Origin: Candidatus Latescibacterota bacterium
Lineage (GTDB): Bacteria > Latescibacterota > UBA2968 > UBA8231
Length of the DNA: 64,000 nucleotides
NCBI GenBank assembly: GCA_965219385.1
Contig: CBDCNM010000002.1
Coordinates: forward strand, 1,482,936 to 1,546,935
Reading direction: 5' to 3'
Position numbers and translations under genes: made by a program. Every line of letters starts with the position of its first letter. Position 1 is the stretch's first letter. Under the pieces are notes generated by a model. That model was not told the DNA's origin, searched no databases, and saw only the letters and a list, made by a program, of their open reading frames with translations. Below, piece by piece: positions 46,731 through 63,717 of the stretch.

Positions 46731-46857
46731 GTTTCAATACCCCAGTAGTCGGGTAAGCCTTCCTGATAGAACAGTAAGCGAGTTTATTACGAGCGAGAGC
46801 GGCTTTGTGTCGCATGTTAAGTTTCAATACCCCAGTAGTCGGGTAAGCCTTCCTGAT
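46731..46857 (-). CRISPR. Array 2, distal part: two 37-bp variant repeats (46731-46767, 46821-46857) and a 53-bp spacer
   Basis: GTTTCAATACCCCAGTAGTCGGGTAAGCCTTCCTGAT (T27G relative to the main array). Confidence 0.9.
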
Positions 46858-47219
46858 CTGACGCGTCCGGCCAGGGATTGGGCGACGGCTTCTTGCAGAC
46901 GCAACCGGTGACTGCCGGTGAGGATGTACTGCCCGCGTTGCTGGCTGCTGTCAGCGAAGACCTGGATGGTTGAGAGCAGCTCGGGTACGCGCTGAATTTC
47001 GTCGATAATAACGGGCGGAGGAAATTGCGAGAAGAAAGCGTGGGGATCGCTTATCGCCAGCCTGCGTACATCGGGTGCTTCCAAGTTCGCATAAACGTGG
47101 TTGGGAAACTGCATACGCGCCAACGTGGTTTTTCCCGCCTGCCGCGGACCGATGATTGTCACCACGGGAAATTCGGTTGCCGTCGCCGCCAATTCTCTGG
47201 CAATTTGTCGTAAAATCAC
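46858..47219 (-). pseudogene. AAA_14/DUF4143-type ATPase, 5' portion truncated at a CRISPR repeat
   Basis: GPRQAGKTT, IIDEIQRVPEL, ILTGS, QSLAGRV, then repeat sequence. Confidence 0.85.
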
Positions 47220-47268
47220 GGTTCTGATCTCTACTCGCGTTGATGCCGTTCAAGGACAAGATAAGAAA

Positions 47269-47309
47269 ATTGGTACAGATTTCAAATTAAACTTTAAATC
47301 TGTACCAAT
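47269..47309. repeat. 14-bp perfect inverted repeat (REP-like hairpin)
   Basis: ATTGGTACAGATTT-13 nt-AAATCTGTACCAAT. Confidence 0.8.
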
Positions 47310-47322
47310 CTCAGACCTACCC

Positions 47323-47351
47323 TTGACATCATATGTTGTCAAAGACATATT
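47323..47351 (+). promoter_or_regulatory. Sigma70-type promoter with overlapping operator palindromes for the TA operon
   Basis: TTGACA-17 nt-CATATT just upstream of ATG 47358; TTGACA..TGTCAA and ATATGT..ACATAT dyads. Confidence 0.6.
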
Positions 47352-47357
47352 TCTCAC

Positions 47358-47715
47358 ATGAGCTGGACAGTCGAAATCGCCGACGAGTTTGAGCCGGAAT
47401 TCGACAGTCTGCATGAGGACGTGCAAACCGAGATCCTAGCGCTGTTGCGGCAGTTCGGGCCGCAACTAGGACGGCCCCGAGTAGACACGCTGAACGGCTC
47501 CCGGCATGCGAACATGAAGGAGATGCGGTTCAGTGCTGCGGATGGATGGGGAATGGCGGCTAGCGTTTGCCTTCGATCCGGCGCGCAAGGCCGTCCTGCT
47601 CGTCGCAGGCGACAAGTCTGGAGTCAACGCCAGATGGTTCTACCATGCGCTCATCCGCAAGGCCGACGAGCGATTCGACCGGCATTTAGCCTCGCTCGCG
47701 AAGGAAGGAGATTAA
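47358..47715 (+). pseudogene. RelE/HigB-like (Gp49-type) toxin, frameshifted
   Basis: GPQLGRPRVDTLNGSRHANMKEMRF / EWRLAFAFDPARKAVLLVAGDK split by a GATG duplication at 47541-47548. Confidence 0.85.
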
Positions 47716-48044
47716 TGATGGCTTTGAACGTGGAAGACAAGATTGCGACGCTGGATCCCGCTCGGCGACGCAAGGTCGAGGATCGGGCGGCAGAACTCAT
47801 TGCTGAGGAGATGACCCTGCGCGAACTGCGCAAGGCCCGGCAGCTCACCCAGGCGCGCGTCGCGCACCAACTCGGTATCTCGCAGGATGGCGTCTCGCGG
47901 CTCGAGCAACGAAGCGATCTGTTGCTCTCAACGTTGCGCAAGACGGTGGAGGCCATGGGCGGCAGCCTTTCGCTCATCGCCAGATTTCCCGACCGTCCGC
48001 CGGTCGAGCTGTCAGGCATTGCCGACGGCGATCCCCGCGATTGA
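47715..48044 (+). CDS. XRE-HTH antitoxin
   Basis: LRELRKARQLTQ..VSRLEQRSDLLLSTLR..AMGGSL; AGGAG RBS; TAATG coupling. Confidence 0.88.
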   Translation: MMALNVEDKIATLDPARRRKVEDRAAELIAEEMTLRELRKARQLTQARVAHQLGISQDGVSRLEQRSDLLLSTLRKTVEAMGGSLSLIARFPDRPPVELSGIADGDPRD

Positions 48045-48072
48045 CGCCCGAGGTGACGTGAACTCCGCTCGC

Positions 48073-48492
48073 ATGGGTATTAAGGCGCTGACTGTCGATG
48101 TCTTTGGCACGGTCACCGACTGGTACTCTACCATTGTGCGAGAGGGTGAGCGATTAGGCTGCGACAAGGGGATTACCGTGGACTGGGCACGCTTTGCCAC
48201 GGCTTGGCGCGGTGGCTATGAGCCCGCTATGGGTCGCGTGCGGAGTGGCGAATTGCCTTGGATGAAGCTTGCGCGGCATTACAAGCCGGACAGGGAAGTT
48301 TACGAGAAGGCGGCGCATCTTCTCGATTTGGAGCCGCCTTCAATCCTGATGGTCGCGGCGCATCGCCACGACTTGGAGGGAGCTAGAGCCGTTGGATTCA
48401 GAACGGCCTTTATTCCACGTCCGCTTGAATGGGGACCGGAAGGCCAAGCAGACACCGCGCAAGACGGAGATTTTGACATAATTGCGCAAGAC
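48073..48492 (+). pseudogene. Haloacid dehalogenase type II with a large in-frame internal deletion
   Basis: DVFGTVTDW...ELPWMKL joined directly to ARHYKPD..MVAAH; central region missing compared with the HAD at 23442. Confidence 0.7.
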
Positions 48493-48602
48493 GACAATCT
48501 GTACGGCCTAACTCAATATAAACCAAATATAAACAAATATGCAAGATGCAACGGAGTACAACCAGGACGCGCTCGCATATGGCGTCGAGGAGCGTTGAGA
48601 TC

Positions 48603-48962
48603 ATGAGCGACCGGAGTTTACAATCGGGCTACTACAGCACAATCACTTACCTCGCCGAGCTTCTGGATGAAGCCTTGGTGCAACTCAAGCTCGCGCGAGG
48701 TGGCGCACCCTCGTCAGAAATCGAAAAGGTCGCCAAGATGTTGGAAGCAGCGGCTAGCGAGGAGCGCCGCGATCTCTCGACTGCATTCCTGCGCTTGATC
48801 CTTCGGGATGAGCTAGGAGAACAACAGCAGGCTTGGCAAGAACTAAGCGTGCGACTTGGGAAGGGAGAGTGCGACGAGCGTGACGTGGAGACGATGGAGC
48901 AGATCGCTGAAGTCGTGGACACAGAGCGGGCATCAGCGTTTCGCAAAATGAGAGGGTACTAG
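48603..48962 (+). CDS. Hypothetical helical protein
   Basis: GAGGAG RBS; coupled to the next ORF. Confidence 0.55.
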   Translation: MSDRSLQSGYYSTITYLAELLDEALVQLKLARGGAPSSEIEKVAKMLEAAASEERRDLSTAFLRLILRDELGEQQQAWQELSVRLGKGECDERDVETMEQIAEVVDTERASAFRKMRGY

Positions 48963-49614
48963 GTGTTCGAGGAGTATATCGATGGAACTCTCGGCGAGCT
49001 GGAACGACGGGCGCTCGTCCTGCGGGCAAAGATTCCGCGAGACCTGCCGCCCTACTATGCCACACTTGTACAGGCGTGCAACGAGCGGCTTGATAGACTA
49101 CTGTCTGTCCTCCGCGACCTGCGCGATAACCCTGAGTGGCAGGATGAGAAACACGTGACGATCCGATCATCGAGCCCTTGCAGGACAGGATGTTGGAGTC
49201 GGCGGCGGTGGCGATGGAACACTTCCACACGCTGGCCGCGCGAAAGGGAAGGTGGTCGTGCTCCAGAGCAAGAGCGAGCTCGGCTGCGGACGTGGGAATC
49301 CTACTGGGGCAAGTATTGGATCTTAGAGTTCTACTGCGACCTGTTCGCCATCTACACCCTCGGGCCAGCCTTCGCGTGGTCGCATGTGCATCTGAGTGCC
49401 AAGCGGGGCGTGAACCCGTACGACTATTTGATGGAGCAACATCCGGCTGACAGGAGTTAAAGAGATCGGATGCCGCATCGCACACGCTGAGTGCAACGAC
49501 GAAATCCATACGCTCCTGAACGAGGCTTGGCAACGGTTCTGGGACAACCCGAGAGAGTACGCCGCCTCGGAGGATCAGAAGACGAAGGAACTGGGCGCGG
49601 CTGGAAACAACTGA
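48963..49614 (+). pseudogene. Eroded hypothetical protein, possibly zincin-like
   Basis: WILEFYCDLFA..LGPAFAW segment among broken frames; no HExxH motif seen. Confidence 0.35.
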
Positions 49615-49781
49615 GCCCAGAACCGGCACCTTCGCATCCTCGATTTGGAGCCACTTTCCCTCACGCTCAAAACACCCTAGTTGGATGGAAGAGCCATCTT
49701 CTGTTTTCGCCCCTAGAGAATACTAGAGAAGCTAGCGGCGCTGGTCCCCAAACCCGGTTCCATCTCCTTTCATATTGATCG

Positions 49782-49901
49782 GTTTCAATACCCAGTAGTC
49801 GGGTAAGCCTTCCTGATAGGATTGTCATGCTACTCCATTTTCGTAGCACCGTGCGCTAAAATGGGTTTCAATACCCCAATAGTCGGGTAAGCCTTCCTGA
49901 T
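49782..49901 (-). CRISPR. Array 2, leader-proximal part: two variant repeats (49782-49817, 49865-49901) and a 47-bp spacer
   Basis: Same T27G variant; one repeat lacks a C, the other has G15A. Confidence 0.9.
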
Positions 49902-50130
49902 GTGGGGAGGATCGTTTTTTTCATAGCTATTTAACCACGACCATTTTACGACTCAGGTTGACTGAACCGGCCCGTAGTTGATAAATGTATATCCCACTGG
50001 CGACCTTTTCTCCCCTTTGGTCTTTGCCATCCCAAACAGCCGCCTCGTTTAGGTTTAAATAGGGGCCTGCTTCACGAAACCCTAAGTCTAATTTTCGGGT
50101 TAAAGCGCCTCTTACATCATAGATATTTAG
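49902..50130 (-). promoter_or_regulatory. Putative leader of array 2
   Basis: AT-richer non-coding DNA; CGACTCAGG after a 47-nt gap from the repeat, as in the main leader. Confidence 0.6.
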
Positions 50131-50134
50131 CGTT

Positions 50135-50532
50135 ATCTGGGATGGTGCGTGTAGAAGGAAGGGAATCTAGGTTTGAAGGTTGAATGGATTGGGATAGTTG
50201 GACCGCAATTCAGCTTGTTTGGGCAGGACAGGAGGGGATTGAATGTGGGTCGGATCGTCGACATACGGTGACATATCCCACAGCAGTACCATGCCGTCAC
50301 TACTCCCTGTAGCCAGGAGACGGCCGTTAGGAGAGAATATCTTGCGGGTAATTTCTTTTGTATGACCAAGAAGTCGGTTGATAGAATCGGGATGATTCAC
50401 GTTCCATATCCAGAGCGTGTCAAACCAACTACTGGCTACAGTGACGCCATCGGGCGCCAGTATGGAGGGAGGAATCAATTTATATCCTTTTCTGGTTTCC
50501 TTTATAATTTCAGTAGGATTGGGAGTGAGCAT
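50135..50532 (-). pseudogene. WD40-repeat protein remnant with the start of a T9SS/FlgD-type C-terminal domain
   Basis: GHTKEI..FSPNGRLLATGSSDGMVLLWD followed by LRSNYPNPFN, then a stop. Confidence 0.7.
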
Positions 50533-50555
50533 AGGAGGATTTCTGTCTATGTTCC

Positions 50556-50789
50556 TTAAACTGACCGGAGTGAAGGCTCATTCAAAATAGACTGAATGAG
50601 AGCTTCAAGTTCTTTTGCGACAGACTCATCTTGATTAAGTCTCGCTGCATAAACTGAAAACTCCATTCTTTCGAGGAATTCGTCTGTACTGATAATTCCT
50701 TTTCCCTTGAGATGGGAGAAGTTCAACCAGTCCAAGCCCATTGACTGGTCACTTGCTATTAAATGGTCTATTGCTATTGCACTGTTCAT
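50556..50789 (-). CDS. Small hypothetical protein or fragment
   Basis: MNSAIAID... ORF in low-GC DNA. Confidence 0.3.
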   Translation of the reverse strand: MNSAIAIDHLIASDQSMGLDWLNFSHLKGKGIISTDEFLERMEFSVYAARLNQDESVAKELEALIQSILNEPSLRSV

Positions 50790-51271
50790 GGCTTTAGTTT
50801 CCGGTATATGTCGAAGATATAAAAGCAGCCAATCAAGCAGCGGATAATGCAGAGTGGCTTGAGAATTGTCGAGACAAATTGCAGAGTAAATGGAAACAAA
50901 TGAAGGACAAGATTCCAGCGTTGAAGAAGGAAAGACTTCAAGCGTACAGAAGGTTTCGTAATGCTGCTCAAGGTGTGGAATTGTTGATAGCAAAGAATCC
51001 TCCTCGACTCAAGCCTCCTCCTTTCCTCTCCCCTGACCTGGTTCAAATTGATCTCGATGACGTGTATCAGTGATGTTGTTGATAGTGACTTACCCACACA
51101 AGAAGGAAAATAGAATGGAACATATAGACTCCCTGATATCCCAGGTAGGATTATCTATTTTTAGGACTTGTGGTTCTCTGGTGAATATTAATTGAATAGA
51201 CCAAACAAGGAGGCGCTTTGTCGGCTAGTCTTATTCAATTTGAGTGAGGTCGATGATTTTGTTTAATCTTT

Positions 51272-52228
51272 TCAATCTACCGCCATCAAACTATCCAGAT
51301 AATCGGCTATCGCTATGCGTCCCCTTCGGCGGGCTTGTTCGGCGGCGGTCTCTCCATCTGAGTTTCGCAAGTCGAGGTTGGCGCCCGAGGAGACCAGCAA
51401 GCGCACATGGTCCTCATGGCCCCGCCAGGCGGCGGTCATTAAGGCGGTACTGCCGGTTTCGTTTTGCCAATTGACCCAGGCACCCTTTTCGATGAGATAG
51501 GTCATGATGGCTAATGACTCCTCTAGGTTGTGAAAGACTGCTGCCCACAAAGGGGTTTTGGTCGGCTGAGCTCTCATGGATATTTTCCTCGCCCGAGATA
51601 CCTGGTTGACACTGGCCCCTTGTTCTACTAAATATTGCACAATGAGCAATTGACCCGGACCTCCCCAGCATGCGCCGATTAACGGTGTATCCGCATAGAT
51701 GTCAGACCATGAAACATTGGCTCCTCGCTGGACTAGCAATTTGACCAGAGATAATGGTCCGCTGTTGACTGCGTGCATCAAGGCGGTGCTTTCGGACTCA
51801 TCAAATACGTCTACCTCGACTCCTTGATCTAGGAAATAGAGAGCGACTGAAGGTCTTCCATGTCTGGCGGCGATGTGCAATACGTGCAATACGGGGGGCA
51901 TTCCTCCCTCAGGATACTCTGGCCGTCCATAAATGCCCCGGAGTGCTCCTCGGTCCGTGTATCCTTGCTCTCCGAGCCATTGTAGCCGTTGATGCACACT
52001 CATAATACCGGACTCCACCCAGAAGCGCACTTGGAACAGGTCTCCTTCCTCAATAGCCGATGCCCAAGCCGGTATGCCGAACCATTCTTCCCGCGGCCTA
52101 AGATCTCTATTGTGACTTTGTGAAGTGGTAATCTTGGCTGCTGGCTCCAATACGGGTCTTGCTGGTGGGTTAGAACCACAGCCTATGCAAACGAGTAAAA
52201 TCACACCGGATAATCGAACTACATCCAT
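51272..52228 (-). CDS. Ankyrin-repeat lipoprotein
   Basis: Lipobox-like CIGC; repeats LHIAA, TALMHA, TPLIGA, TPLWAA, TALMTAA with GANV/GASVN linkers. Confidence 0.9.
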   Translation of the reverse strand: MDVVRLSGVILLVCIGCGSNPPARPVLEPAAKITTSQSHNRDLRPREEWFGIPAWASAIEEGDLFQVRFWVESGIMSVHQRLQWLGEQGYTDRGALRGIYGRPEYPEGGMPPVLHVLHIAARHGRPSVALYFLDQGVEVDVFDESESTALMHAVNSGPLSLVKLLVQRGANVSWSDIYADTPLIGACWGGPGQLLIVQYLVEQGASVNQVSRARKISMRAQPTKTPLWAAVFHNLEESLAIMTYLIEKGAWVNWQNETGSTALMTAAWRGHEDHVRLLVSSGANLDLRNSDGETAAEQARRRGRIAIADYLDSLMAVD

Positions 52229-52357
52229 TGTCTAACACTCCAATCGTTTGTTGTGTGTAGAATATAAAGAATATATTCATCTCCATCAAACTCTCGTATA
52301 TAGTTATAGCAGAGACATTTAGTCGGATTTCTTAGGTTTGGCAACGTGAGGTTTCCT

Positions 52358-53770
52358 GTGACCCTGTTTACTATATTCGAAAAGTTTCCAGATCAACAAT
52401 CCTGCATTGACCACCTGGAGTCGATTCGCTGGCCCGATCATGCTAGCTGTCCTTCCTGCAAAAGCCTCAGAGTAGCCCGCAAGAAGGACAGGGATCTCTT
52501 GGGCCGTTGGAATTGTCATAACTGCCGATCCTCTTTTACTGTCCTCTCTGGCACAATCTTCTCCGGTACTAAAATTCCTCTTCAGAAATGGTTCCTCGCC
52601 ATTGTTCTGATGTCCGATTCCAAGAAATCATTGTCGAGTTACCAGCTAGCTAGACACCTGGATATGAACCAGAAGTCAGCCTACAATATCCAGCAGAAAA
52701 TCCGTCAAGCTATGAAGGGCGAGGAGTCCGAGCTTTTGGAGGGTATTGTCGAAGCCGATGAAACTTAGAGGCCCTAACAAAACTCTTTGAGGTACTTCCA
52801 ACAGATGAGAATACATCCGATGTCGAGAAAGGCTTCATGGAGATCACCTCGTCGCTCCCAGCGGACTCGAAGCCGACGGAATTGGTGCAACCATGCCAAC
52901 GTTCGTTCCACCACCCACCGATAGACGCCCAAGCCGCTGCCGTGGGCTTGCCCTCGCCGAGCCAACACCGAGCCGATGCCCCGCTTACGCAAGGCGCGCC
53001 GATGGGCTTGCGAATCATAGGCCCGATCCCCTTGCACCCGATCCGGCCGACGACGCGGGCGGCCGACCCGACCGGCCACCGGGGGTATGCGATCCACCAA
53101 CGGCAACAGCTGCGTCACATCATGCCGATGGGCCCCCGTCACCCCCGCCGCCAACGGCACCCCTTGGGCATCGGTGATTACATGGTGTTTGCTACCGGGT
53201 TTGCCGCGGTCCGTCGGATTGGGACCGGTGTGCGCCCCCCCCCAACCGCCCGCACCGAGGCACTATCGACCACCGCACGAGACCAATCAATCCGGTCGGC
53301 GGCCCTCAGTCGGTTCAACAGGATATGATGGACTCTTTTCCAGACCCCGGCTTGTTGCCAAGCGTGCAGGCGACGCCAACAGGTCATCCCCGAACCGCAC
53401 CCCATCTCTTGAGGCAAATACTCCCAAGGGATACCCGTCTTGAGCACAAAGAGAATGCCGGTCAGCACCCTACGGTTATCCAGCCGAGGCCGCCCCCCTT
53501 GGGGGCCAACGGTTACGGGGGGCAAAACCGGTTCAATCAAGGCCCATAACCCATCGTCGAGTAACGGCTTGGCCATCAAAAACACCTCCATATCAAGACG
53601 GTAGAAGCAATACCGAAGAGGATAAGAATATAATGAAGCCTATACGCGATTCCAAGGTTTTGTTAGAGACTCTTATATAGGTGGGAAGCCTCGGAACAAG
53701 AATAAGAACAATAAAGGTGGACCTGTCGGTAAGATTTCGGTGGTTGGGGCAGTTCAACGGGATGGCAAAG
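52358..53770 (+). pseudogene. IS1595-family transposase, interrupted by IS5 and truncated
   Basis: Zn ribbon CPSC..CHNC, GTIFSGTKIPLQKWF; VEADET|YIGGK is restored when the IS5 is removed. Confidence 0.88.
52768..53672 (-). mobile_element. Complete IS5-family element (905 bp) with TTA target duplication
   Basis: Terminal IRs GAGGCCCTAACAAAAC / GAGTCTCTAACAAAAC; TTA at 52765-52767 and 53673-53675; two transposase ORFs meeting at a G9 run (53235-53243). Confidence 0.93.
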
Positions 53771-53785
53771 AGGGTGATTCTAAGC

Positions 53786-53992
53786 ATGGAACCTGTAAAT
53801 TGGACTCAAACTGGTGTTTTTACTGGCATTATGTTGGCAGCTTTTGTGGCTCTTTGGCGCTTGAATCACGCGGATATGCAGAATATCAGATCTGATATTA
53901 AGGAATTGCGTGGGGTGGTAAACAATTTGGTCCGAAGTGTGGGCCGTATTGAGGGGTATATTGGAAGGAGAAAGGAAAAGGAAGAGTCTTAA
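53786..53992 (+). CDS. Small protein with one TM helix and a coiled coil
   Basis: MEPVNWTQTGVFTGIMLAAFVALW..IRSDIKELRG..VGRIEGYI. Confidence 0.6.
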   Translation: MEPVNWTQTGVFTGIMLAAFVALWRLNHADMQNIRSDIKELRGVVNNLVRSVGRIEGYIGRRKEKEES

Positions 53993-54102
53993 TTTGTATT
54001 GAGATTGGTTAGTAGGCTGTAACTGCCACGCTTTGAGCGAGTCAAGGAACTTGTCCCGATCTTTCGGTCTTAGGTAGTGGCAGTTACGGCTCTTTTGTTA
54101 TG

Positions 54103-55995
54103 ACCCCAGTAGTCGGGTAATCCTTCCTGATGAAAAGGCTTGCAAAATCGCCAAGGAACAGAAGGAAGGCAGGTTTCAATACCCCAGTAGTCGGGTAATC
54201 CTTCCTGATGCACGTCAAATTCCAGTTTTGCACGGGCGGCCCTGAGTTTCAATACCCCAGTAGTCGGGTAATCCTTCCTGATCTGTCTCGCCCCGCACCC
54301 ACAAGCGCCGCTCCGCCTGGTTTCAATACCCCAGTAGTCGGGTAATCCTTCCTGATGCACAATGAAAATCAAAATCATCCACGACCACGACAAGTTTCAA
54401 TACCCCAGTAGTCGGGTAATCCTTCCTGATCTGTCTCGCCCCGCACCCACAAGCGCCGCTCCGCCTGGTTTCAATACCCCAGTAGTCGGGTAATCCTTCC
54501 TGATGCACAATGAAAATCAAAATCATCCACGACCACGACAAGTTTCAATACCCCAGTAGTCGGGTAATCCTTCCTGATCTGTCTCGCCCCGCACCCACAA
54601 GCGCCGCTCCGCCTGGTTTCAATACCCCAGTAGTCGGGTAATCCTTCCTGATCAGCTACACAAGAGTGCAAGATGTAATACCGATCCCCTGGTTTCAATA
54701 CCCCAGTAGTCGGGTAATCCTTCCTGATCGAGAAAAATCGTCTTTGCCGCCAAGGATTTAATTGTTTCAATACCCCAGTAGTCGGGTAATCCTTCCTGAT
54801 CCAGATGAAAAGATTCTATCAACTATATACTGATAAGTTTCAATACCCCAGTAGTCGGGTAATCCTTCCTGATGAGATATAGACAATGACACGACGACAT
54901 ATGGACTACACGTTTCAATACCCCAGTAGTCGGGTAATCCTTCCTGATGCACAGAATCGGCTCATTCATGCTCTGGGTTCTCTCTCGTTTCAATACCCCA
55001 GTAGTCGGGTAATCCTTCCTGATAAGATATCCAGGACGAACAACCTGGAACTACCCGTCAAGTTTCAATACCCCAGTAGTCGGGTAATCCTTCCTGATAT
55101 GGGCATTATGTCCGACAACAACCGGTCTCGTACGAGTTTCAATACCCCAGTAGTCGGGTAATCCTTCCTGATATGGGGACTGCATCTACTGCGGATTCCC
55201 GCTCGATAAGTTTCAATACCCCAGTAGTCGGGTAATCCTTCCTGATCCAATAAAGTAGCCCTCCACGAGCGGGCAGGGTTGAAGGTTTCAATACCCCAGT
55301 AGTCGGGTAATCCTTCCTGATGGGAGCAGTCAAGGAACAGCGAAAAGCACGCGTGCAAGCCCGTTTCAATACCCCAGTAGTCGGGTAATCCTTCCTGATA
55401 AGACGCGTAGCGGGTATTACCGCGTGTTGGAGGACGGTTTCAATACCCCAGTAGTCGGGTAATCCTTCCTGATGAGCTACAAACATCTTCACTGAAGCGA
55501 CCGCCTGCACGTTTCAATACCCCAGTAGTCGGGTAATCCTTCCTGATTTTCAAAACTTGTAATGATGCTAAATTGTGGATACGAGTTTCAATACCCCAGT
55601 AGTCGGGTAATCCTTCCTGATAATCTACCGAGAAACAACAACGGCTATTGGCGCAATTAGTTTCAATACCCCAGTAGTCGGGTAATCCTTCCTGATCTGG
55701 TCGACCCGTACGAACTGTTCAGCCAGGAGGAGCGTTTCAATACCCCAGTAGTCGGGTAATCCTTCCTGATTGGACGCGAACGCCGCTCAGTCGGCACAGC
55801 TGAAAGAGTTTCAATACCCCAGTAGTCGGGTAATCCTTCCTGATATGCGAACCCTGACCACAAGAGAAATTTTACCCCTCATGTTTCAATACCCCAGTAG
55901 TCGGGTAATCCTTCCTGATTTGAGCCGGCAGGTGCCGGATTGGGCTCCGATCGAATATGTTTCAATACCCCAGTAGTCGGGTAATCCTTCCTGAT
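54103..55995 (-). CRISPR. Main CRISPR array: 25 full 37-bp repeats plus 1 truncated, 25 spacers of 35-41 bp (22 unique)
   Basis: Minus-strand repeat ATCAGGAAGGATTACCCGACTACTGGGGTATTGAAAC (TACCC/GGGTA stem, 3' ATTGAAAC); degenerate repeat at the left (trailer) end. Confidence 0.98.
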
Positions 55996-56297
55996 CCCGC
56001 CCGTGTTATTTCCTGTCTCGCAGGCAATTGCAAGGCGGTTCTCGACTCAGGCCATTTTGACAGATAAAACGCTTCCAAAAATAAAAACCTGCACTGAAGC
56101 ACCTGTTCATAATGCTCACTCCTGCAAAGGGTTAGAAATTTGCGACCCACCAGAACATGACAAAATACATCTAATCCTCACGCGCGCTGTTCGATACAAG
56201 CTCAAACTGCCAGTATGGCATTACCAGACGCTTATGGGTCGCATCCACCTGTCTGAGCCTGCCTGTGACCTGGCAAACAGGTGGCCACATAGTCAGA
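55996..56297 (-). promoter_or_regulatory. CRISPR leader
   Basis: Non-coding DNA between cas2 and the first repeat. Confidence 0.75.
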
Positions 56298-56579
56298 TCA
56301 AACAATCACATAGTCCTCGTGTTTCGGTACGGGATGTTCGCATTCGGAAATCCCTTCAATCCGCTTCTTACATGCGGCACACAGGTGATAATAACACACC
56401 CGATCGTCTTCGGGATCAATCAATTCTGATAGCTTGGATCGCAGCTCAACAAAGTGCCGCTCCTGCAACTCGCATTCAAAAACGCTCTTCTGCCGCCGCG
56501 ACCCATAATCCTCCATCAACTTCATCACCCGCCGCAATCTGCGCTTGTCTGCAATATCGTAGGCCACAACCACGAACAT
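56298..56579 (-). CDS. cas2: CRISPR-associated endonuclease Cas2
   Basis: VVAYDIADKRRL..YGSRRQKSVFEC. Confidence 0.96.
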   Translation of the reverse strand: MFVVVAYDIADKRRLRRVMKLMEDYGSRRQKSVFECELQERHFVELRSKLSELIDPEDDRVCYYHLCAACKKRIEGISECEHPVPKHEDYVIV

Positions 56580-56683: not shown

Positions 56684-57685
56684 TCATCGAATTAGAAACG
56701 GCAGATACGCGGCCTCCTCACCACGCAACATGCGAATCAGTCGCCGTGCCTGCAATTCAAAACATTGGCGATAGGGAATCTTTTGCACCTGCCCGTCGTG
56801 CCCCAGATATTGAACCACGACAGCCACCCGGTCCTGATAGGCGCGAATCAATCGCCGGCGCCCGTCGTCACACACAAACACACCCCCATCGCGCTGTTCA
56901 AAATCCTCTGTTTTCATCTGCCCATGATTCAACAAATCCAGCACCATTGCATCCACAATCACCGGTCGAAATTCCTCCATCACATCCAGCGCAAGCGACG
57001 GCCGCCCGTAATCTACAAGGTGCAGATAACCGATATAGGGATCCAATCCCACGCGCAAAACAGCCGATTCCAGGTCGGAAGACAGAAGCGTATAACCAAA
57101 GCTCAACATGGCATTGACGGGGTCTTTGGGCGGGCGCCGCGTGCGTTTGACAAACGGAAACGCGTCGGGCAAAAACCGACCCAGCGCATCGAAATATGTC
57201 GCTGTAGCCGCGCCTTCAACCCCGCGCAACGCATGGGCATCTTCAATGCGATCCACCTGTCTTAAAAGCGAGCGCAATCGATGCGCGGTTTGTGCAACAT
57301 CCTGGTTTCGCCGTCGGGCAAGGCGCATCACAAGCGTGCGCATATTGCGAATTTTGCCCGACACAAACCCACGCGCAGCACCCAGTCGAAAACCTTCGTC
57401 CTCATACCGCCGATATTGGATCTGCCGAAGAATCACATTGCGACCCTCCGGCCCAATCAACCGACCGCGATAACTCCCCGTGGCGCTCAGCAACACGAGA
57501 TCAATGCCCTGCATCAGAGCCGCATTCATCGCCGCGGGCGTAATCCCGATATTGCCAAACAAAACCACCTGATCCAGGTCAAACACAGGCAATGCCTGGA
57601 GCTTCTTCTTGCCCTTCCACACGGCCAAACGCTGTCCTTCCCGCCGCACCTGAGCACCGGGTTCGGTCACATAGAGCACGGCCAC
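56684..57685 (-). CDS. cas1: CRISPR-associated integrase Cas1
   Basis: RGVEG, RRPPKDPVNAMLSFGY, GLDPYIGYLH, LALDVMEEFRP; AGGAGG RBS before GTG. Confidence 0.97.
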   Translation of the reverse strand: MAVLYVTEPGAQVRREGQRLAVWKGKKKLQALPVFDLDQVVLFGNIGITPAAMNAALMQGIDLVLLSATGSYRGRLIGPEGRNVILRQIQYRRYEDEGFRLGAARGFVSGKIRNMRTLVMRLARRRNQDVAQTAHRLRSLLRQVDRIEDAHALRGVEGAATATYFDALGRFLPDAFPFVKRTRRPPKDPVNAMLSFGYTLLSSDLESAVLRVGLDPYIGYLHLVDYGRPSLALDVMEEFRPVIVDAMVLDLLNHGQMKTEDFEQRDGGVFVCDDGRRRLIRAYQDRVAVVVQYLGHDGQVQKIPYRQCFELQARRLIRMLRGEEAAYLPFLIR

Positions 57686-57754
57686 ATCACACCTCCTGAA
57701 CACCCGGGAAGGCGAGCGTCTCCCTCGCCTGGCCCTTGGTCCCCATAAAAAATC

Positions 57755-59677
57755 TCAATACACGACCTCCTCAACACCAACCTGCAACCGCCCCTCTCCA
57801 TCTGCTGTCACAACCCAAACACCGGTGGATATTTTACCCTTGCGATCGCGCAACAAGTCGCGCACCACATCTTCTGCCTGCGCCAAGTCGGTCATAACTT
57901 GCGCAGCTTTCCGACGCAGGGAAACATACCGGTCCACAGCCTCGCCATTGTGCGGTCGATCCGCTCGTCCCATACCTGCCGTAAACGACGCATCAATATG
58001 CAGCACAGGGGAGGGATACCCCCCTTCGGGCAAATCAAACTCGCAGGCGCATGGCACGGTTTCAACGAGGTCGGGCAAATGGCTGCGAATTTTGGGACAT
58101 CCTATGGGATGCGAAGGCAACCGCCCGATATGGTAATCTGTCACCTCGGCCTTGTAATCTGCGCAGGCGCCAATCACCGCATGCAAAAAAGCGCGCCCCC
58201 GTTCGCCAACATGCCCAAACACACACTTCAAAACATGGCGCTCAATATGTGCAAGATGCGCCGTTGCAAAGGCTTTCTCTGTGAGCGCGCGAATAACCGC
58301 GCACCCCTGCAAAACCGGTTGAAACTCTGGAAACTGCTTTTCCAGATCGGCCTTCTCCAGCGGGGTAGCGGTATGGTCATCCTGTCCGACCAGACGAGAA
58401 ACCGCATGGTCAAACCCATGGACATCAACGGGTTTGGCATCGCGTAAAACGCCGCCTTGATCTGCGACAGCACGCCCTTCCGGATCGACAAACAAAGCCC
58501 GCCGCCCGGTCTTGCGATGCACCCCCAGAGGCAGCTTGATCAAATTGCCCAGTTCATCTTCACCAACGGCATCCTGCTTGGGAAAAAGCTCCCACTGCAA
58601 TTCCTCTGACGACGGCCCAAACCGCTTTACAAACGCACGACCAAATTTGCGAAGGTCACCCGCCCGCACAGTGCTCTGAAAAAATAGCCATACATGCGCC
58701 CCCTTGTGCCCGCTGTCTTCCACATACACCGGGAGATTGAGCGACGCAAACCCCGCACAAACCCGCCGCATGTCTTTGCACACTTGCGCCCGCAACGCAT
58801 CCATCAAAGCGTCATTTTGCTGCGCCTTGTGGAGTGCCTCTTTTTTTATGTCGATATCCAGTGCCAAAAATTGTGCTTTATCCCCTTCAAAAACGGGATA
58901 CACGCCAACCGTTGCATCCCCCCGAAGGTGGGATTGGATCACATCCACGGTCAGGGCTTCACGAACCGGTACATAGCCCGCCTTACCGTCATCATCGATC
59001 CATTGGCGTGCATAAACGTCTTCTCGACCAGCAAACAAGGCCAACATCCGCGCTGCAACATCCGATTGGCTTTCGACTTCTACACCCGGAAACGCCTCGG
59101 ACGATTTCAACTGCGCCGACACCAACTGCCTTCCCGCCAGCGCACCCGCATGGTCTGGCACGAGATCGAGCACCCGGCCATACAACTCCTGCGCCAGACC
59201 CATCATACCGTCCTCTTCGTAGAGCCGCGCCAGTTCAAATATCCCATCAACGTGATCTGCTTGATGCTGAATGAGCTTCTGCAGAAGCGACTGGGCCAGG
59301 CCGTTTTCATTTCGCTCAACCTGCAACATCGCCAGACCAAACAGAGACTTTGCATCATAAGGACACTGTGCCAGGTACGCCTGATAGATTTCAACGGCGG
59401 CCTGAACATTATTCAGCTCTTCTGCCAGCGCACCCCAATTGGCAAACGCATCATCCACCGGCAAATCGCGCCACCGATCGAGCAGAGCATGTGCCCTGTC
59501 CTGCTCGCCTCGGATCAGCGCCACGCGCACCATCAACTGATGCGCCCGATTGCAGCCCGGATCACGCGCACTCGCTTCCGAGGCCAATGCCTCCACACCA
59601 TCCACGTCGTTTTGCTCCAAAAGCACCTGCGCCTTTTCACACAGGGTATCAACAAGAGAAACAGCAGAGGTCGCCAT
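57755..59677 (-). CDS. CRISPR-associated primase-polymerase (TPR + AEP + PriL-C-like domain)
   Basis: N-terminal TPRs; FAGREDVYARQW, LDID, DSGHKGAHVW, LGNLIKLPLG; Cys-rich C-terminus; directly upstream of cas1. Confidence 0.9.
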   Translation of the reverse strand: MATSAVSLVDTLCEKAQVLLEQNDVDGVEALASEASARDPGCNRAHQLMVRVALIRGEQDRAHALLDRWRDLPVDDAFANWGALAEELNNVQAAVEIYQAYLAQCPYDAKSLFGLAMLQVERNENGLAQSLLQKLIQHQADHVDGIFELARLYEEDGMMGLAQELYGRVLDLVPDHAGALAGRQLVSAQLKSSEAFPGVEVESQSDVAARMLALFAGREDVYARQWIDDDGKAGYVPVREALTVDVIQSHLRGDATVGVYPVFEGDKAQFLALDIDIKKEALHKAQQNDALMDALRAQVCKDMRRVCAGFASLNLPVYVEDSGHKGAHVWLFFQSTVRAGDLRKFGRAFVKRFGPSSEELQWELFPKQDAVGEDELGNLIKLPLGVHRKTGRRALFVDPEGRAVADQGGVLRDAKPVDVHGFDHAVSRLVGQDDHTATPLEKADLEKQFPEFQPVLQGCAVIRALTEKAFATAHLAHIERHVLKCVFGHVGERGRAFLHAVIGACADYKAEVTDYHIGRLPSHPIGCPKIRSHLPDLVETVPCACEFDLPEGGYPSPVLHIDASFTAGMGRADRPHNGEAVDRYVSLRRKAAQVMTDLAQAEDVVRDLLRDRKGKISTGVWVVTADGEGRLQVGVEEVVY

Positions 59678-59734
59678 AAGGGGAGACTCCTTTCTTTCAG
59701 GTCTGGGTGCGGTGACGTACAGGGTGGGCATGGG

Positions 59735-61036
59735 TTAGCTCTGGGAAAAGTCCAACGAGCGGGCTACCGTCAGCCGCTCGCCAGTCTTTGGATCGTCCTC
59801 TTTCAGCAGGCGTTCGAGATCGGCTATAACCTTGCGTAAAGGGGTTGCTTCCGGCGGTGCCATGGCCGTGAAGCCGTGGGTTAGAATGCTGTCGTTGCGT
59901 CTGCTGGTCTGCGACTCGCTGTGTCTATCGAATTGGATCAATTGGTCAGCGAGTGGATCACCAAGATATTCCAGCAGCTTAACGGCCTGATAGCGGGATG
60001 CCTGTAATTTTCCCTTTTTTCCGTCTGTGATGAAGGAGAGAGCCTTAATCGCCGCGTCGTTTGGCGGCAAGTCGGCGCTGTTGTAGCCTTGGTCAAATAG
60101 CCGGATCTGCCCGATCAGTTCGAGCACCCGATAGGCGCGTATCAGGGCGTCCTCGAAGTGCTGGTCTCGCAGACGCCGCTCCGCATTGGCCAACAGATCG
60201 CAGACCAGCGCCCGCAGATGTGCGGCCATCGCCGCATGGCCAGACCGATCAGGATTAAGCCTCTGGTCTAGTCGGCGGAGCCACTTACTCATTTCTGGGG
60301 TTGGTGCAAATCTGCCCGCTTCTTTCGCCAGCGCCCCGCGCCGGTCCAACGCCTCAACGGCTGCTTTATAGTCGAGCCGATCCCAAGCGACGTAGATGTA
60401 CGCCGCTGAACGCAGGGCTTCGGCCTGTACACGGAATTGCTCTGAAAATAATCCGGCGAAAGGTCCATCCAGGTGGGGCAATAGTTCGATCACAGCACCG
60501 AAGTCGCCGTGGCCCATGAGACGTTCGGCTTGGTCGAGGCGTCGGCGTTCAGTAACAAGGTTGGTCCTTATCTGGCCGACCTTTTCGGTGCCGGGAATCA
60601 CCATGCCGCGCTCGTCGCGCTGCCCGCTATGGACGTAGCGCAAGACCGGGATGTCGCGGCCAAGCGCCGCCAGTACCAAGGCGGCACTCATGGCCTTGGT
60701 GCCGCGAGTGAAATCCACTACGATGTCGCTTGGCTTGAAGCCGTCGTCAATGAGCCGGGCGAGCACCGAATCAAAATGCCCGAAACAGGCGTCCGCGTTA
60801 TTCTCCTGCCCTGACGCCGGCAGTGCATCAATCTCGACGGTGGGGTTGGAGATGCGCTCCTGCAAGGTTTGGGCAAACTCCTCAGTCTCGCGCGACGGCA
60901 ACAAGACGATTCGGTCCCATTCGCCGTCTTCGACGCTTTTGAGCATCGGAACAAGCAGAGTCCGTTCGATGTCATCAATGTTGCCGGTACCAACAGTGAG
61001 GACCAGGGCTTTTTTGCTACTAGGGTGAGTGGTCAT
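59735..61036 (-). CDS. CARF-domain protein with HEPN-like motif (TIGR02710-like)
   Basis: LVLTVGTG, VDFTRGTKAMSAAL, DLLANAERR, RAYRVLE, RNDSILTHG (RxxxxxxH-type). Confidence 0.85.
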   Translation of the reverse strand: MTTHPSSKKALVLTVGTGNIDDIERTLLVPMLKSVEDGEWDRIVLLPSRETEEFAQTLQERISNPTVEIDALPASGQENNADACFGHFDSVLARLIDDGFKPSDIVVDFTRGTKAMSAALVLAALGRDIPVLRYVHSGQRDERGMVIPGTEKVGQIRTNLVTERRRLDQAERLMGHGDFGAVIELLPHLDGPFAGLFSEQFRVQAEALRSAAYIYVAWDRLDYKAAVEALDRRGALAKEAGRFAPTPEMSKWLRRLDQRLNPDRSGHAAMAAHLRALVCDLLANAERRLRDQHFEDALIRAYRVLELIGQIRLFDQGYNSADLPPNDAAIKALSFITDGKKGKLQASRYQAVKLLEYLGDPLADQLIQFDRHSESQTSRRNDSILTHGFTAMAPPEATPLRKVIADLERLLKEDDPKTGERLTVARSLDFSQS

Positions 61037-61586
61037 CAGTAGTAGACCTAGGTATTCCTACCTTTTCACCGCTTTTGCGAACCAGAGCCACCAAGGCGGC
61101 ATCGACGATACCAGCCAGGCCGCTTTTGTCATCATAGTCGATCACCTGTTTGAGTTCTAGGCGTAGTGGCAAGTCCCCTTTTGTTAATTCCAATTCTGCC
61201 AGCGGCAGCCAAATCTCCGCCCCGCGATCTTCTACCAACTTTATCCATGGCGGCGGCCCGGGTTCCACCTGGGTCCCCCACAGGGCATGATGCTCCGTCA
61301 GAGTATCGGTCAATTTTTGCAATTCCAGCCTACGGCCCTGCCAAGTTCCGCCCCAATGAGACCAGACATGCCATTCGCCGTCCTCGCCGAATAAACGAAG
61401 GTCGCTGACCCGTGCCCAATCCGGTTGCACATCTGGAGGCCAGCAGATTTTGTCCGACTGAACCACGCCAAAACCGATAAAGCCGGGTTCCTGTAATAAG
61501 ATCCACGCTGTCTCGTTCGTGGTTACATAGGGCAAGTGTGAACAGACCAATTCTTCATTAAGTTCTTCATGCGTTTTCTTAGACAT
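61020..61586 (-). CDS. csx19: Type III-D subunit Csx19
   Basis: DLRLFGEDGEWHVW, LWGT; position after the double-RAMP gene. Confidence 0.8.
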   Translation of the reverse strand: MSKKTHEELNEELVCSHLPYVTTNETAWILLQEPGFIGFGVVQSDKICWPPDVQPDWARVSDLRLFGEDGEWHVWSHWGGTWQGRRLELQKLTDTLTEHHALWGTQVEPGPPPWIKLVEDRGAEIWLPLAELELTKGDLPLRLELKQVIDYDDKSGLAGIVDAALVALVRKSGEKVGIPRSTTDDHSP

Positions 61587-61599
61587 CTGCGATCCTCTC

Positions 61600-63063
61600 T
61601 TATTTTTTAGGTCGCCGTGAACCTTTGGGGCGACCAGGAGATTCCTGGGCCTTCTCGACACAACATTCGAGGAATGAGTCTTCACCATCTACAAGCGTCA
61701 TGCTGTTATTAACATGTGAAAATTCCCAAACCTTAACATCTGGCGAGGTAGAACATTTTAATTGAAATAAGGCTCTGAAACCCTCGAAAGTACCGCGACC
61801 ATTGCTCGTTTCTCCACCCAGGGCGGCATGCCCATTCCAGAAGTCGCGCAGGGTCAAGAACAACAAGCCAATTTCTTCGTCCTCGGGTTCCTCCAGTTTC
61901 AATATCAACCGGAGATGTGGCATTGGTTTTTTCAAGTCCTTGAGGCAGATTGGAAAAATCGGTTTTTCGTTAAACAAGGCACTCTGCAAACTGCCCCCGG
62001 TAAATCGATCAATAGCAACGCGATCCTGCCACCGTGGTTCCACATTCTTCACCAACTTTTCCTCAATCCATACCCGGCTTGCCCACAAACCTTGCGGATC
62101 TTTGGCTTCTTGTTCATGGACAGGGCCGAATATTTCACTCACTGCGTCCTCAGACCAGCCAATGGTGGTTGCGATCAGAGAAGCGCGATGCCGGAATGCA
62201 CCGGCAAAGGATGTGCCGGGGACGACAGGCTCTCCAGCGGAGTGCAGATGAACCATGTCTGGAGCTTCTGGATCAGAAGGTGAACTACGGATTAACAGGG
62301 ATGTACGCAGGATGAAATCCGCTTCAAGGCGAAAGTATTGTCGTTGATCAGATGGCAATGGATGTGGCGTCGAATTACTCGCGGGACGAGACCAGACCGA
62401 GCCACGTAGCCACGCCATGACATCCTCTGGATCGTTCATCTGCAAATCGCGTATCTCCCAGGACGCTACCTTGCCGCGACCATAGCCCCGGCGGGTTCGT
62501 GCGCCCAGTCGGATATCGCCTGTTTTGAACCCATGTAAGAGAGCTAAGAACAACTTCCCTAATTCATTATTATCGTCTCCGTCTCCCTTACGAATAATGC
62601 ACTCCAGATCCAACTTAAATTCAGTCCCGCGTTCGACAACTTCCACGTCGAATTTTGCCTTTGCAGCGGCAGAACCCGATTGGGTGTCCACACGCACGCC
62701 ATCGCGGATTGATGTCCATGCTTGCTCGCTGGCACAGGCAGCATCGGCAACGATTAAGGCACTCATGGTATCCTTTTCATCCGCTCCGCCGAAAAGCCGT
62801 TTGAGCACCTGGCCCTCATCCCCCTCTTGGTATTCCGCCCAGGGCAAACTCTGCCGGGCCAGAAAACTCCGCGCCGCTCCAGCGATGGATGCACCCGGAA
62901 TAAAGGGCTGTCCATCCGCATCCTTCAGAAGGCACATATCCGCTATACCTGTTTCGTCTCCCCCAAAGTGCGCCACACTGTCCAGCTCCCACTTACCCCG
63001 AGCATACAAACGGCGCACAATGGCATCCTTAGCTTCAGATGTTTCTGTCTTCGTATTTGCCAT
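61600..63063 (-). CDS. csm3: Type III-D double Cas7 (Csm3-group RAMP x2)
   Basis: Two RAMP domains: IPGASIAG..LFG..LGARTRRGYG and VPGTSFAG..IFG..IDRFTGG..LGGETSNGRG. Confidence 0.9.
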   Translation of the reverse strand: MANTKTETSEAKDAIVRRLYARGKWELDSVAHFGGDETGIADMCLLKDADGQPFIPGASIAGAARSFLARQSLPWAEYQEGDEGQVLKRLFGGADEKDTMSALIVADAACASEQAWTSIRDGVRVDTQSGSAAAKAKFDVEVVERGTEFKLDLECIIRKGDGDDNNELGKLFLALLHGFKTGDIRLGARTRRGYGRGKVASWEIRDLQMNDPEDVMAWLRGSVWSRPASNSTPHPLPSDQRQYFRLEADFILRTSLLIRSSPSDPEAPDMVHLHSAGEPVVPGTSFAGAFRHRASLIATTIGWSEDAVSEIFGPVHEQEAKDPQGLWASRVWIEEKLVKNVEPRWQDRVAIDRFTGGSLQSALFNEKPIFPICLKDLKKPMPHLRLILKLEEPEDEEIGLLFLTLRDFWNGHAALGGETSNGRGTFEGFRALFQLKCSTSPDVKVWEFSHVNNSMTLVDGEDSFLECCVEKAQESPGRPKGSRRPKK

Positions 63064-63074
63064 GCTATTAGTCC

Positions 63075-63717
63075 TTATTTATCCCTTGACTTACGGCGCA
63101 GTGCTGTAAGTAGATGATCGAGAAATACTGTACACATCTTCGCGCTGTCATCCGAGACCAGTTTGTCAATCATGGTTTGGCGCATATCGGCGTAGCGACC
63201 TTCGACAAGCTCTTCAACGCGACTTTCAATCAATTGCCGAGTTAAGGACTCTGGTTCAGTCCATGCCTTTTTGAACAAATTGCACAGTGTCATTTGGCGC
63301 GACAGTCCGGGGATGTCGGCGTTTATCCGACAGTTCATCAATCCTTCCTCTGCCGGCTTACGTAAGTTATTTAAGCTCTCAACAGGCGCATCTTGTTGGA
63401 GAAACAGACGTAGCCGGCCGAGAAGGGCATTGCTTGGAACGTTCTGCGTCCGCTCAGCGCAGGTCATGGCACGCTGTTGCATCTCAGCCAAGCAACGCGA
63501 TCGTACAACGCCATACAGCAGGTCTTGGACACTCTGTGGTATCTTCGAGTCTGGCGCGCTGGGTATATTTTTCTCATCCAGTTGGATTTCTTCCCACAAC
63601 TGAAGATTGCCCTGTCGATTGACTGCAATGCGGCCATACCCCTCTTCCTTGCGTAACCCTAGGCCATCGTGCTCCAATTGCAAGAGATGCTTCTGATCGA
63701 GAGCTTTATCAGCCTTA
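63075..63717 (-). pseudogene. csx10: 3' part of a Csx10-like (Cas5 plus Cas11-like) type III-D gene, interrupted by IS5
   Basis: G-loop GLGLRKEEGYGRI followed by a helical C-terminus; the frame stays open up to the IS end. Confidence 0.75.

What the first reader, a model, noticed from the sequence alone, without database searches (positions are those of the whole stretch)
49949..56051. Positionally conserved leader motif CGACTCAGG shared by both arrays
Seen: the two flanks are otherwise dissimilar, yet both carry CGACTCAGG after an identical 47-nt gap from the first repeat (49949-49957 and 56043-56051). Established: leaders of some CRISPR types have fixed-distance motifs bound by Cas1-Cas2 or host factors. 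Inference: this is a candidate integration-specificity motif for a CAPP/type III adaptation module, and it supports array 2 being a true array served by the same Cas1.
Basis: partly seen in the sequence, partly recalled or inferred. Interest (0 to 1): 0.7.

Follow-up and report, generated by a model that had tools for sequence, protein, structure and literature searches.

The report
Phased CRISPR leader motif, false twin
The 9-base word is a real, precisely spaced landmark in the leaders of this family of CRISPR arrays, probably a docking site for the spacer-inserting enzyme as in other CRISPR types, but its second copy lies inside a broken protein gene and is most likely a coincidence.

Summary
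Both CGACTCAGG copies and both 47-nt gaps are real. At the main array the word is a true conserved leader motif: 19 of 19 leaders of this CAPP-Cas1-Cas2 type III-D lineage carry it 47-48 nt from the first repeat (17 exact), with a direct copy 100-101 nt further and an inverted copy 94-95 nt beyond, while the flanks have diverged. The same phase and layout recur in CAPP-free I-C/I-G-like leaders (36 of 53), so this is the known phased-leader plan with a lineage-specific sequence, not a CAPP signal. The 'array 2 leader' is no leader: it is an 18-nt spacer remnant fused to the 3' end of a WD40/FlgD-Ig pseudogene; the 9-mer is codons there, the other motifs are missing, and 0 of 20 comparable junctions in relatives have it. 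Array 2 is still a real array remnant (four variant repeats, two spacers from the 5' end of a host gene family, one 2.9-kb insert). A motif-guided ectopic junction is not excluded (chance about 1e-4 to 1e-3). Side finding: in this lineage trailer repeats often bound whole genes.

The parts
56043..56051 (+). M1, proximal leader motif CGACTCAGG, 47 nt from the first repeat
   Evidence: at 47 (15) or 48 (4) nt in 19 of 19 leaders
56050..56062 (+). P1, 13-bp imperfect palindrome overlapping the end of M1
   Evidence: at +54/55 in 19 of 19 leaders (8 or more of 10 positions)
56140..56149 (+). M2, direct copy of the M1 core (TTGCGACCCA), 100 nt from M1
   Evidence: 19 of 19 with 0-1 mismatch, spacing 100-101
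56208..56220 (+). P2, second 13-bp palindrome; overlaps the -35 box of the likely array promoter in clade B leaders
   Evidence: 17 of 19; sigma-70-like 9-11 of 12 at about +197 in 10 of 11 clade B leaders, weak in clade A
56235..56243 (+). M3, inverted copy of the core (TGGGTCGCA), 95 nt from M2
   Evidence: 19 of 19 at spacing 94-95, 0-3 mismatches
55996..56297 (-). true leader of the main array, between cas2 and the first repeat
54095..55995 (-). main array: 25 exact 37-nt repeats plus a degenerate terminal repeat; spacers 35-41 nt; newest spacer (55920-55958) is a 39 of 39 match to the host chromosome
56298..56579 (-). cas2
56684..57703 (-). cas1, closest to the I-G/I-C/I-D models but below each subtype cut-off
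57755..59731 (-). CAPP type A1 (TPR + AEP primase-polymerase)
   Evidence: NF040561, 321.8 bits, cut-off 200
59735..63683 (-). distal part of the type III-D operon: CARF/HEPN protein, Csx19, RAMP, and the C-terminal piece of a Csx10-like RAMP split by an IS5 copy just beyond
49927..50532 (-). 3' part of a WD40 + FlgD-Ig pseudogene (in-frame stop at 50167-50169; terminal TAG 49927-49929, 25 nt from the repeat)
   Evidence: (PF13860, E 4.9e-8)
49902..49919 (+). 18-nt remnant matching the region upstream of a multicopy host small Cys-rich protein gene; probable truncated spacer
   Evidence: 17, 17 and 16 of 18 in three paralogues; only 4 sites genome-wide within 2 mismatches; table 5c
49781..49901 (-). 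'array 2': two AAGCC-variant repeats and a 47-nt spacer from the start codon region of that host gene family
46858..49780 (.). 2,923-nt insert in spacer position, cut by repeats at both ends
46731..46857 (-). third unit: two AAGCC-variant repeats and a 53-nt spacer from codons 7-21 of the same host gene family; strain-variable

Best explanation
CGACTCAGG at 56043 is the proximal member (M1) of a three-copy leader signal, M1 (+47), M2 (direct, +147) and M3 (inverted, +240), of a CAPP-Cas1-Cas2 type III-D lineage. Shown: conservation, fixed phase, fixed spacing. [quoted passage not shown] The copy at 49949 is a chance 9-mer in the coding end of a pseudogene that became joined, through a truncated spacer, to the remnant of an older array whose own leader is lost.
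For: 19 of 19 leaders, picked by Cas1 or repeat similarity and not by the motif, have M1 at 47-48 nt; identity between the two clades (Cas1 56-58%) is 0.91 in the motif block against 0.43 and 0.38 in the flanks; M1-M2 100-101 and M2-M3 94-95 nt. The three-motif pattern hits 20 places in 16 of 168 genomes, all leaders, control 0 (circular, but no false hits). In 53 non-redundant leaders of distant Cas1 (34-41%), CG[AC] starts at 47-49 in 36 (control windows mean 4.4, max 12) and a direct+inverted layout peaks at seed 47 (32 against 6.9). Published parallels: E. coli I-E motif about 50 bp upstream, I-F inverted repeats bound by Cas2, I-D motif I about 50 bp upstream with distal motifs needed for full acquisition, Marinitoga CAPP system needing IHF and a long leader. 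Array-2 flank: collinear with a chromosomal paralogue, gapless to the stop, 1 of 44 FlgD-Ig copies has the 9-mer; 24 of 65 conserved leader columns matched, no M2, M3 or P1; 0 of 20 other non-leader repeat junctions in relatives have the 9-mer at 47; its first 18 nt come from the spacer donor family.
Against: No binding or integration data. No IHF consensus above background in the window leader (best 6 of 9; background mode 6); both DNABII genes are below the IHF and HU cut-offs. The 19 leaders are kin in two clades from three genera, so not independent. The coincidence at array 2 is unlikely taken alone: 22 junctions x 2 offsets x 3.3e-6 is about 1.5e-4 for the exact 9-mer, or about 2e-3 with the PWM rate of 4e-5 (arithmetic); it is acceptable only because the scan selected it from very many windows. 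The donor joints have short sides and were not shown to lie on one contig.
Confidence: 0.62

Rival explanations
1. Pseudo-leader: the 9-mer in the FlgD-Ig gene is coding sequence but was used. Cas1-Cas2 docked on it and so set the junction 47 nt away, or has since added spacers at that internal repeat (the odd 47-nt spacer).
For: Exact word at exact phase, chance about 1e-4 to 1e-3. The gene runs in array sense and stops 25 nt before the repeat, like other gene-sized inserts in relatives. In 12 places in genus g31 a leader fragment is fused to a Tat-signal gene exactly at an M1-like sequence, so M1 look-alikes do take part in rearrangements.
Against: The 47 nt are composite (18-nt spacer remnant, then gene end), so the breakpoint is not at the repeat; M2, M3, P1 absent; 0 of 20 other junctions show the motif; the 47-nt spacer and the remnant are adjacent pieces of one donor, simpler as acquisitions at a real leader.
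Confidence: 0.15
2. The M1/P1 block is a transcription element (promoter or operator, for example of the CARF-sigma-54 activator encoded at the head of the operon) and not an integrase site.
For: P1 and P2 are dyads typical of a dimeric regulator and P1 holds TTGACA; a CARF/NE0113-sigma-54 activator gene lies in the locus; the g31 fusion shows the distal leader can head a gene.
Against: No sigma-70 site in the window leader; the best promoter in clade B lies at about +197, 150 nt from M1; no conserved sigma-54 GG-N10-GC (at most 4 of 19 at one place); a promoter need not keep 47-48 nt to the repeat across I-C, I-G and III leaders. P1 may still be an operator while M1 serves integration.
Confidence: 0.12
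3. The motif is read by CAPP and marks CAPP-served arrays.
For: All 17 loci fetched around close Cas1 hits have CAPP directly upstream of cas1; the exact 9-mer is in 0 of 53 CAPP-free leaders.
Against: CAPP and this Cas1 lineage are confounded; the core, phase and layout are shared with CAPP-free systems, including the I-G and the other type I array of this genome; the passages read from the CAPP paper show Cas1-Cas2 plus IHF giving specificity.
Confidence: 0.06
4. One reading: array 2 has its own diverged but genuine leader, of which only the 9-mer is conserved.
For: Exact phase; repeats differ from the main repeat by 1-2 nt with the same hairpin.
Against: The flank is a protein-coding end; no homologue of it as a leader in 168 genomes, all 22 hits elsewhere map to query 64-141, the coding part; real secondary arrays keep all three motifs.
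Confidence: 0.04
5. The block is conserved because it encodes a small leader peptide.
For: All 8 clade A leaders hold a 30-34-codon frame over M1.
Against: Clade B: 4 of 11 have no frame over M1 and the rest use mixed frames.
Confidence: 0.01

Closest known systems
Type I-D leader motifs I-III of Synechocystis 6803 (Kieper et al. 2019, PMC6607411; parts 1-2 of 3 read)
   Same: Proximal motif about 50 bp from the first repeat, distal motifs about 200 bp away, motif III reads as the inverse of motif I; this Cas1 scores near the I-D model.
   Different: Other sequence; longer span (246 nt); type III-D with CAPP; function untested here.
Type I-E upstream motif and I-F/I-C multi-motif leaders folded by IHF (Santiago-Frangos et al., bioRxiv 10.1101/2023.05.26.542337, passages read; the 2021 Curr Biol survey was not held and is recalled only)
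   Same: Short motifs at fixed phase, in direct and inverted copies, with subtype-specific sequence and spacing.
   Different: No clear IHF consensus between the motifs in the window leader; three copies at about 100-bp pitch.
CAPP-TPR (type A1) adaptation module of Marinitoga piezophila (Zabrady et al. 2021, PMC8211822, passages read)
   Same: TPR-AEP CAPP next to cas1-cas2 in a type III locus; integration there needs IHF and several hundred bp of leader.
   Different: The passages read map no leader motif; here M1-M3 give candidates. Subtype III-D, not III-B.
Type III-A adaptation in Thermotoga profunda (PMC13769266, first part and passages read)
   Same: States that determinants of site-specific integration in type III remain largely unexplored and that a DNABII protein (HU) gives fidelity.
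   Different: No sequence motif reported in the passages read.
Stand-alone mini-arrays near type III loci (Shmakov et al., 10.1101/2023.03.03.530964, passages read)
   Same: Two repeats around a 20-60-nt spacer close to the main array, not conserved in relatives.
   Different: That survey found no targets for type III mini-arrays; here both spacers match the 5' end of a host gene family, and a 2.9-kb insert links the two units.

Membership tests
Phased CRISPR leader motif (I-E/I-F/I-C/I-D kind) | Fixed distance of about 50 bp from the first repeat across homologous leaders | tested here: met
   47 nt in 15 and 48 nt in 4 of 19 leaders
Phased CRISPR leader motif (I-E/I-F/I-C/I-D kind) | Further direct or inverted copies at conserved spacing | tested here: met
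   M2 at +100/101, M3 inverted at +94/95 from M2 in 19 of 19
Phased CRISPR leader motif (I-E/I-F/I-C/I-D kind) | Conserved well above the surrounding leader; sequence specific to a Cas1 lineage | tested here: met
   0.91 against 0.43/0.38; exact 9-mer in 0 of 53 distant leaders
Phased CRISPR leader motif (I-E/I-F/I-C/I-D kind) | IHF site between repeat and motif, and an IHF-type protein in the host | tested here: inconclusive
   Best 6 of 9 in the window leader, background level; 6-8 of 9 at +10 in clade B (consensus recalled); two DNABII genes below cut-offs
Phased CRISPR leader motif (I-E/I-F/I-C/I-D kind) | Mutation or re-phasing lowers integration | not testable with these tools
   needs an integration assay
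Genuine leader for array 2 | Non-coding and homologous to the family leader (M1, P1, M2, M3) | tested here: not met
   FlgD-Ig coding end; 24 of 65 conserved columns; PWM 0.5
Array 2 as a CRISPR array remnant | Repeats of the local family separating captured sequences | tested here: met
   four AAGCC repeats, hairpin kept; spacers have donors
CAPP type A1 (CAPP-TPR) module | TPR + AEP protein directly upstream of cas1-cas2 | tested here: met
CAPP-specific DNA signal | Phase and layout absent from CAPP-free systems | tested here: not met
   36 of 53 leaders without CAPP in the fetched flank (1.5-6 kb) share the phase
Type III-D CRISPR-Cas | Cas10 with GGDD, Csx19, TIGR03986 RAMP, Csx10-like RAMP | tested here: met
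   the Csx10-like gene is split by IS5 in this genome
Regulatory mini-array (cr-like RNA) | Spacer partly matches a cas or cargo promoter in the locus | tested here: not met
   matches are to host small-protein genes elsewhere
Regulatory mini-array (cr-like RNA) | Conserved in related loci | tested here: not met
   spacer pattern only in G000 of 168 genomes; left unit reduced or absent in runs X5 and X9

The most novel reading that the evidence does not exclude
The second 9-mer is not chance: this CAPP-linked Cas1-Cas2 docks on motif look-alikes in ordinary genes and joins them to CRISPR repeats, so the lineage's arrays capture whole, sense-oriented genes between repeats like integron cassettes (stops 0, 1, 12, 17 and 25 nt before the next repeat in five separate inserts) and take adjacent 38-nt tiles from the 5' end of a host gene family.
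Probability: 0.12. Interest if true: 0.8.

Novelty: new member of a known kind. Interest (0 to 1): 0.4.

Why it matters
How type III systems pick the first repeat is still described as largely unexplored (PMC13769266). This lineage gives three exact, phased targets (M1-M3) and two dyads for a direct test in a CAPP system, and suggests that type III-D with an I-C/I-D/I-G-like Cas1 uses the same folded-leader plan as type I. The three-motif pattern is also a clean detector of these leaders. It warns that one shared 9-mer does not show a second leader. If the pseudo-leader reading held, it would offer a route by which CRISPR integrases capture genes.

Tried and rejected
Metagenome scan with the repeat: 1 hit, a chance match with no array. 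Viral scans: 0 hits for the extended motif; 2 hits for the three-motif pattern, both in GC-rich coding DNA without repeats, rejected as chance. Distant Cas1 loci L049-L127 carry no exact 9-mer (one of the 53 rows, L074, was N-masked and was left in the count). Loci with CAPP-cas1 but no leader in the fetched stretch (G074, G007, G024) and G090 (orphan repeats only) were left out of the 19. IHF consensus, sigma-54 and sigma-70 readings of M1 not supported (consensus motifs recalled). Leader peptide rejected. Array-2 flank as leader homologue: no hit in 168 genomes outside the coding part. Donor of the 47-nt spacer not found in 167 other genomes; no fetched array of a relative targets that gene family. 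No RNA holder listed, so nothing on expression. No structure or complex prediction was run, as it would not test DNA recognition. Two key motif catalogues (PMC8552246, PMC12171695) were not held; they and their supplements may already list this motif. Eight paper searches by general terms were made; none was a search for the sequence itself, so absence from print is not shown.
Full report
Observation. Both copies of CGACTCAGG lie 47 nt from a 37-nt repeat, at 49949-49957 and 56043-56051. They are the only exact copies in the window, 2 of 38 in the genome. A same-offset run of 9 or more with the main leader arises in 180 of 200,000 random genomic 300-mers. A contig from run X2 is identical over 49790-52760.

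Context. The window is G000:C2:1482936-1546935; the closest named Cas1 hit (83%) is from a Candidatus Latescibacterota genome. The locus is type III-D (Csx19, TIGR03986 RAMP, Cas10 with GGDD, Cas6) followed by a type A1 CAPP, cas1 and cas2, all on the minus strand. The main array (54095-55995) is read on the minus strand with its leader at 55996-56297.

The motif in true leaders. I collected 18 leaders from relatives, found by Cas1 similarity or repeat similarity, not by the motif; loci without a leader in reach were left out (G074, G007, G024, G090). With the window's own, 19 of 19 have M1 at 47 (15) or 48 (4) nt: 17 exact, one with 1 and one with 2 mismatches. They form two clades (Cas1 82-85% and 56-58% to the window). 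Between clades the block around M1 is 0.91 identical, the flanks 0.43 and 0.38. M1 is one of three copies of a GCGAC(T/C)CA core: M2, direct, 100-101 nt further (56140), and M3, inverted, 94-95 nt beyond (56235). Two 13-bp dyads sit at +54 (19 of 19) and +212 (17 of 19). A 20-nt pattern with up to 2 mismatches gave 35 matches in 23 of 168 genomes (control 2): 20 are leaders 47-48 nt from a repeat, 12 are one family of leader fragments fused to a Tat-signal gene, 3 are chance. The three-motif pattern alone gave 20 matches in 16 genomes, all leaders, control 0; it was built from these leaders, so it shows specificity only. These genomes are kin and not independent.

Not a CAPP signal. All 17 loci fetched around the close Cas1 hits have CAPP, but CAPP and Cas1 lineage are confounded. 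In 53 non-redundant leaders beside distant Cas1 (34-41%; mostly I-C- and I-G-type repeats; no CAPP in the fetched flanks), CG[AC] starts at 47-49 in 36 (control windows mean 4.4, max 12), and a seed with both a direct and an inverted copy peaks at offset 47 (32 against 6.9); none has the exact 9-mer. So phase and layout are general, the sequence is lineage-specific. This fits what the papers read describe for I-E, I-F and I-C, I-D and the need for IHF and a long leader in the Marinitoga CAPP system. Against a complete fit: the IHF consensus (recalled) scores at background in the window leader and both DNABII genes miss the IHF and HU cut-offs; HU-type, sequence-tolerant bending as in Thermotoga is the likely alternative. 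M1 is not the core promoter: no sigma-70 site in the window leader, the best candidate in clade B lies at about +197, and no sigma-54 site is conserved.

The array-2 flank is not a leader. From 49927 it is the minus-strand 3' end of a WD40 + FlgD-Ig pseudogene, collinear with a paralogue at C2:2.659 Mb (PF13860). The 9-mer is codons N-L-S-R at a variable position; 1 of 44 such domains in the genome has it. The flank matches 24 of 65 conserved leader columns, lacks P1, M2 and M3, and scores 0.5 on the M1 matrix against 34.7 for the main leader and at least 36.0 for the training set; 474 of 11.6 million genomic positions score as well. Of 20 other non-leader repeat junctions in relatives (some homologous to each other), 0 have the 9-mer at 47. 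The first 18 nt (49902-49919) match the region upstream of a multicopy host gene family for small Cys-rich proteins, the same family that both short spacers match. In runs X2 and X5 contigs join this 18-mer, through 20 other letters, to the first 38 nt of the 47-nt spacer, and that to the 53-nt spacer (table 5c; short sides, one contig not shown). So the 18-mer is probably the stump of a 38-nt spacer adjacent in the donor to the next one, and the 47-nt distance is a composite. Real secondary arrays of this family, three in G082, keep the whole leader.

What array 2 is. The four AAGCC repeats are best read as one old array remnant with spacers of 47, 2,923 and 53 nt and a lost leader. The crRNAs would be antisense to the host gene family's mRNA start. 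The long insert is cut by repeats at both ends: mid-gene in an AAA ATPase, and exactly where 95% identity to CRISPR-free loci of G128 and G139 stops. The left unit is reduced in X5 and absent in X9. Self-matching spacers, including the newest main-array spacer (39 of 39), are plausibly tolerated because IS5 splits the Csx10-like gene, an 810-codon frame in G083; this is inference.

Residual doubt. The exact word at the exact phase has a chance of about 1.5e-4 over the 22 junctions examined (2e-3 by the matrix rate). Selection from a very large scan makes that acceptable, but a used pseudo-leader is not excluded (0.15). In its favour, the g31 fusions break at an M1 look-alike, and gene-sized inserts in this lineage run in array sense and often stop at the next repeat: 0 nt (DUF6883-DUF4926, four genomes, one event), 1 (dockerin gene), 12 (cas2), 17 (dynamin-like pair), 25 (here), among 19 listed inserts over 120 nt that also include run-throughs, a group II intron and non-coding pieces. 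Long inserts between repeats have precedent (899 bp in Sulfolobus) and other reports of this scan note them (unchecked AI notes).

Verdict. A real, well-defined leader architecture for a CAPP type III-D lineage, a new member of a known kind; the two catalogues most likely to list it could not be read. The inference about array 2 fails. Interest 0.4.

Noticed in passing
window 46731-49919: Both short spacers and an 18-nt stump of the AAGCC array come from the 5' region of one multicopy host gene family for small Cys-rich proteins (C2:4113134-4113421, 212.6 kb, 1450.4 kb, truncated copy at 368.1 kb), all antisense as crRNA; two look like adjacent 38-nt tiles of one donor; both spacers carry 7-9 extra 3' letters.
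   Followed up: partly
L128, L130, L132, L184, L185, L186, L188; window 46858-49780 and 49902-54094: Trailer-side repeats bound gene-sized inserts, mostly in array sense, several ending 0-25 nt before the next repeat (DUF6883-DUF4926, dockerin gene, dynamin-like pair, PIN-domain pair, cas2).
   Followed up: partly
L128:8350-8533, L129, L131, L132, L185, L186, L130:17341: In clade A relatives CAPP-cas1-cas2 lies downstream of the array behind a conserved 182-nt element and a degenerate repeat, and in G074 and G083 another repeat follows cas2 directly, so the adaptation module itself sits between repeats.
   Followed up: no
L245:8667 and 14911, L246, L247:8524, L248:7889, L252:9366: In genus g31 the distal part of the clade A leader is fused at M1 to a Tat-signal gene and supplies its ribosome site and start codon; 12 copies in 10 genomes.
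   Followed up: partly
window 55920-55958: Newest main-array spacer is a 39 of 39 match to C1:1085575-1085613, between a pspA-like gene (named from recall) and a divergent gene.
   Followed up: partly
L182:2653-3559 (just beyond window 63683): An IS5 copy splits the Csx10-like RAMP gene; the same IS has over 20 near-identical copies in the genome, one at window 52767-53673 inside an IS1595 remnant.
   Followed up: yes
L182:11339-13027: CARF/NE0113 domain fused to a sigma-54 activator at the head of the cas operon.
   Followed up: no
window 54246-54615: Two spacers are repeated in tandem (three and two copies) near the trailer end of the main array.
   Followed up: no
L185:13178-15325, L194:2-688: cas1 is deleted in G083 and CAPP-cas1 are cut and run together in G081, yet the full three-motif leader is kept.
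   Followed up: no
L181:8363 onward, L180:6770 upstream: The genome's I-G-type array and its other type I array have their own CG-core motifs at 47-48 nt with distal copies.
   Followed up: yes
window 54010-54090: An inverted repeat follows the degenerate terminal repeat of the main array.
   Followed up: no
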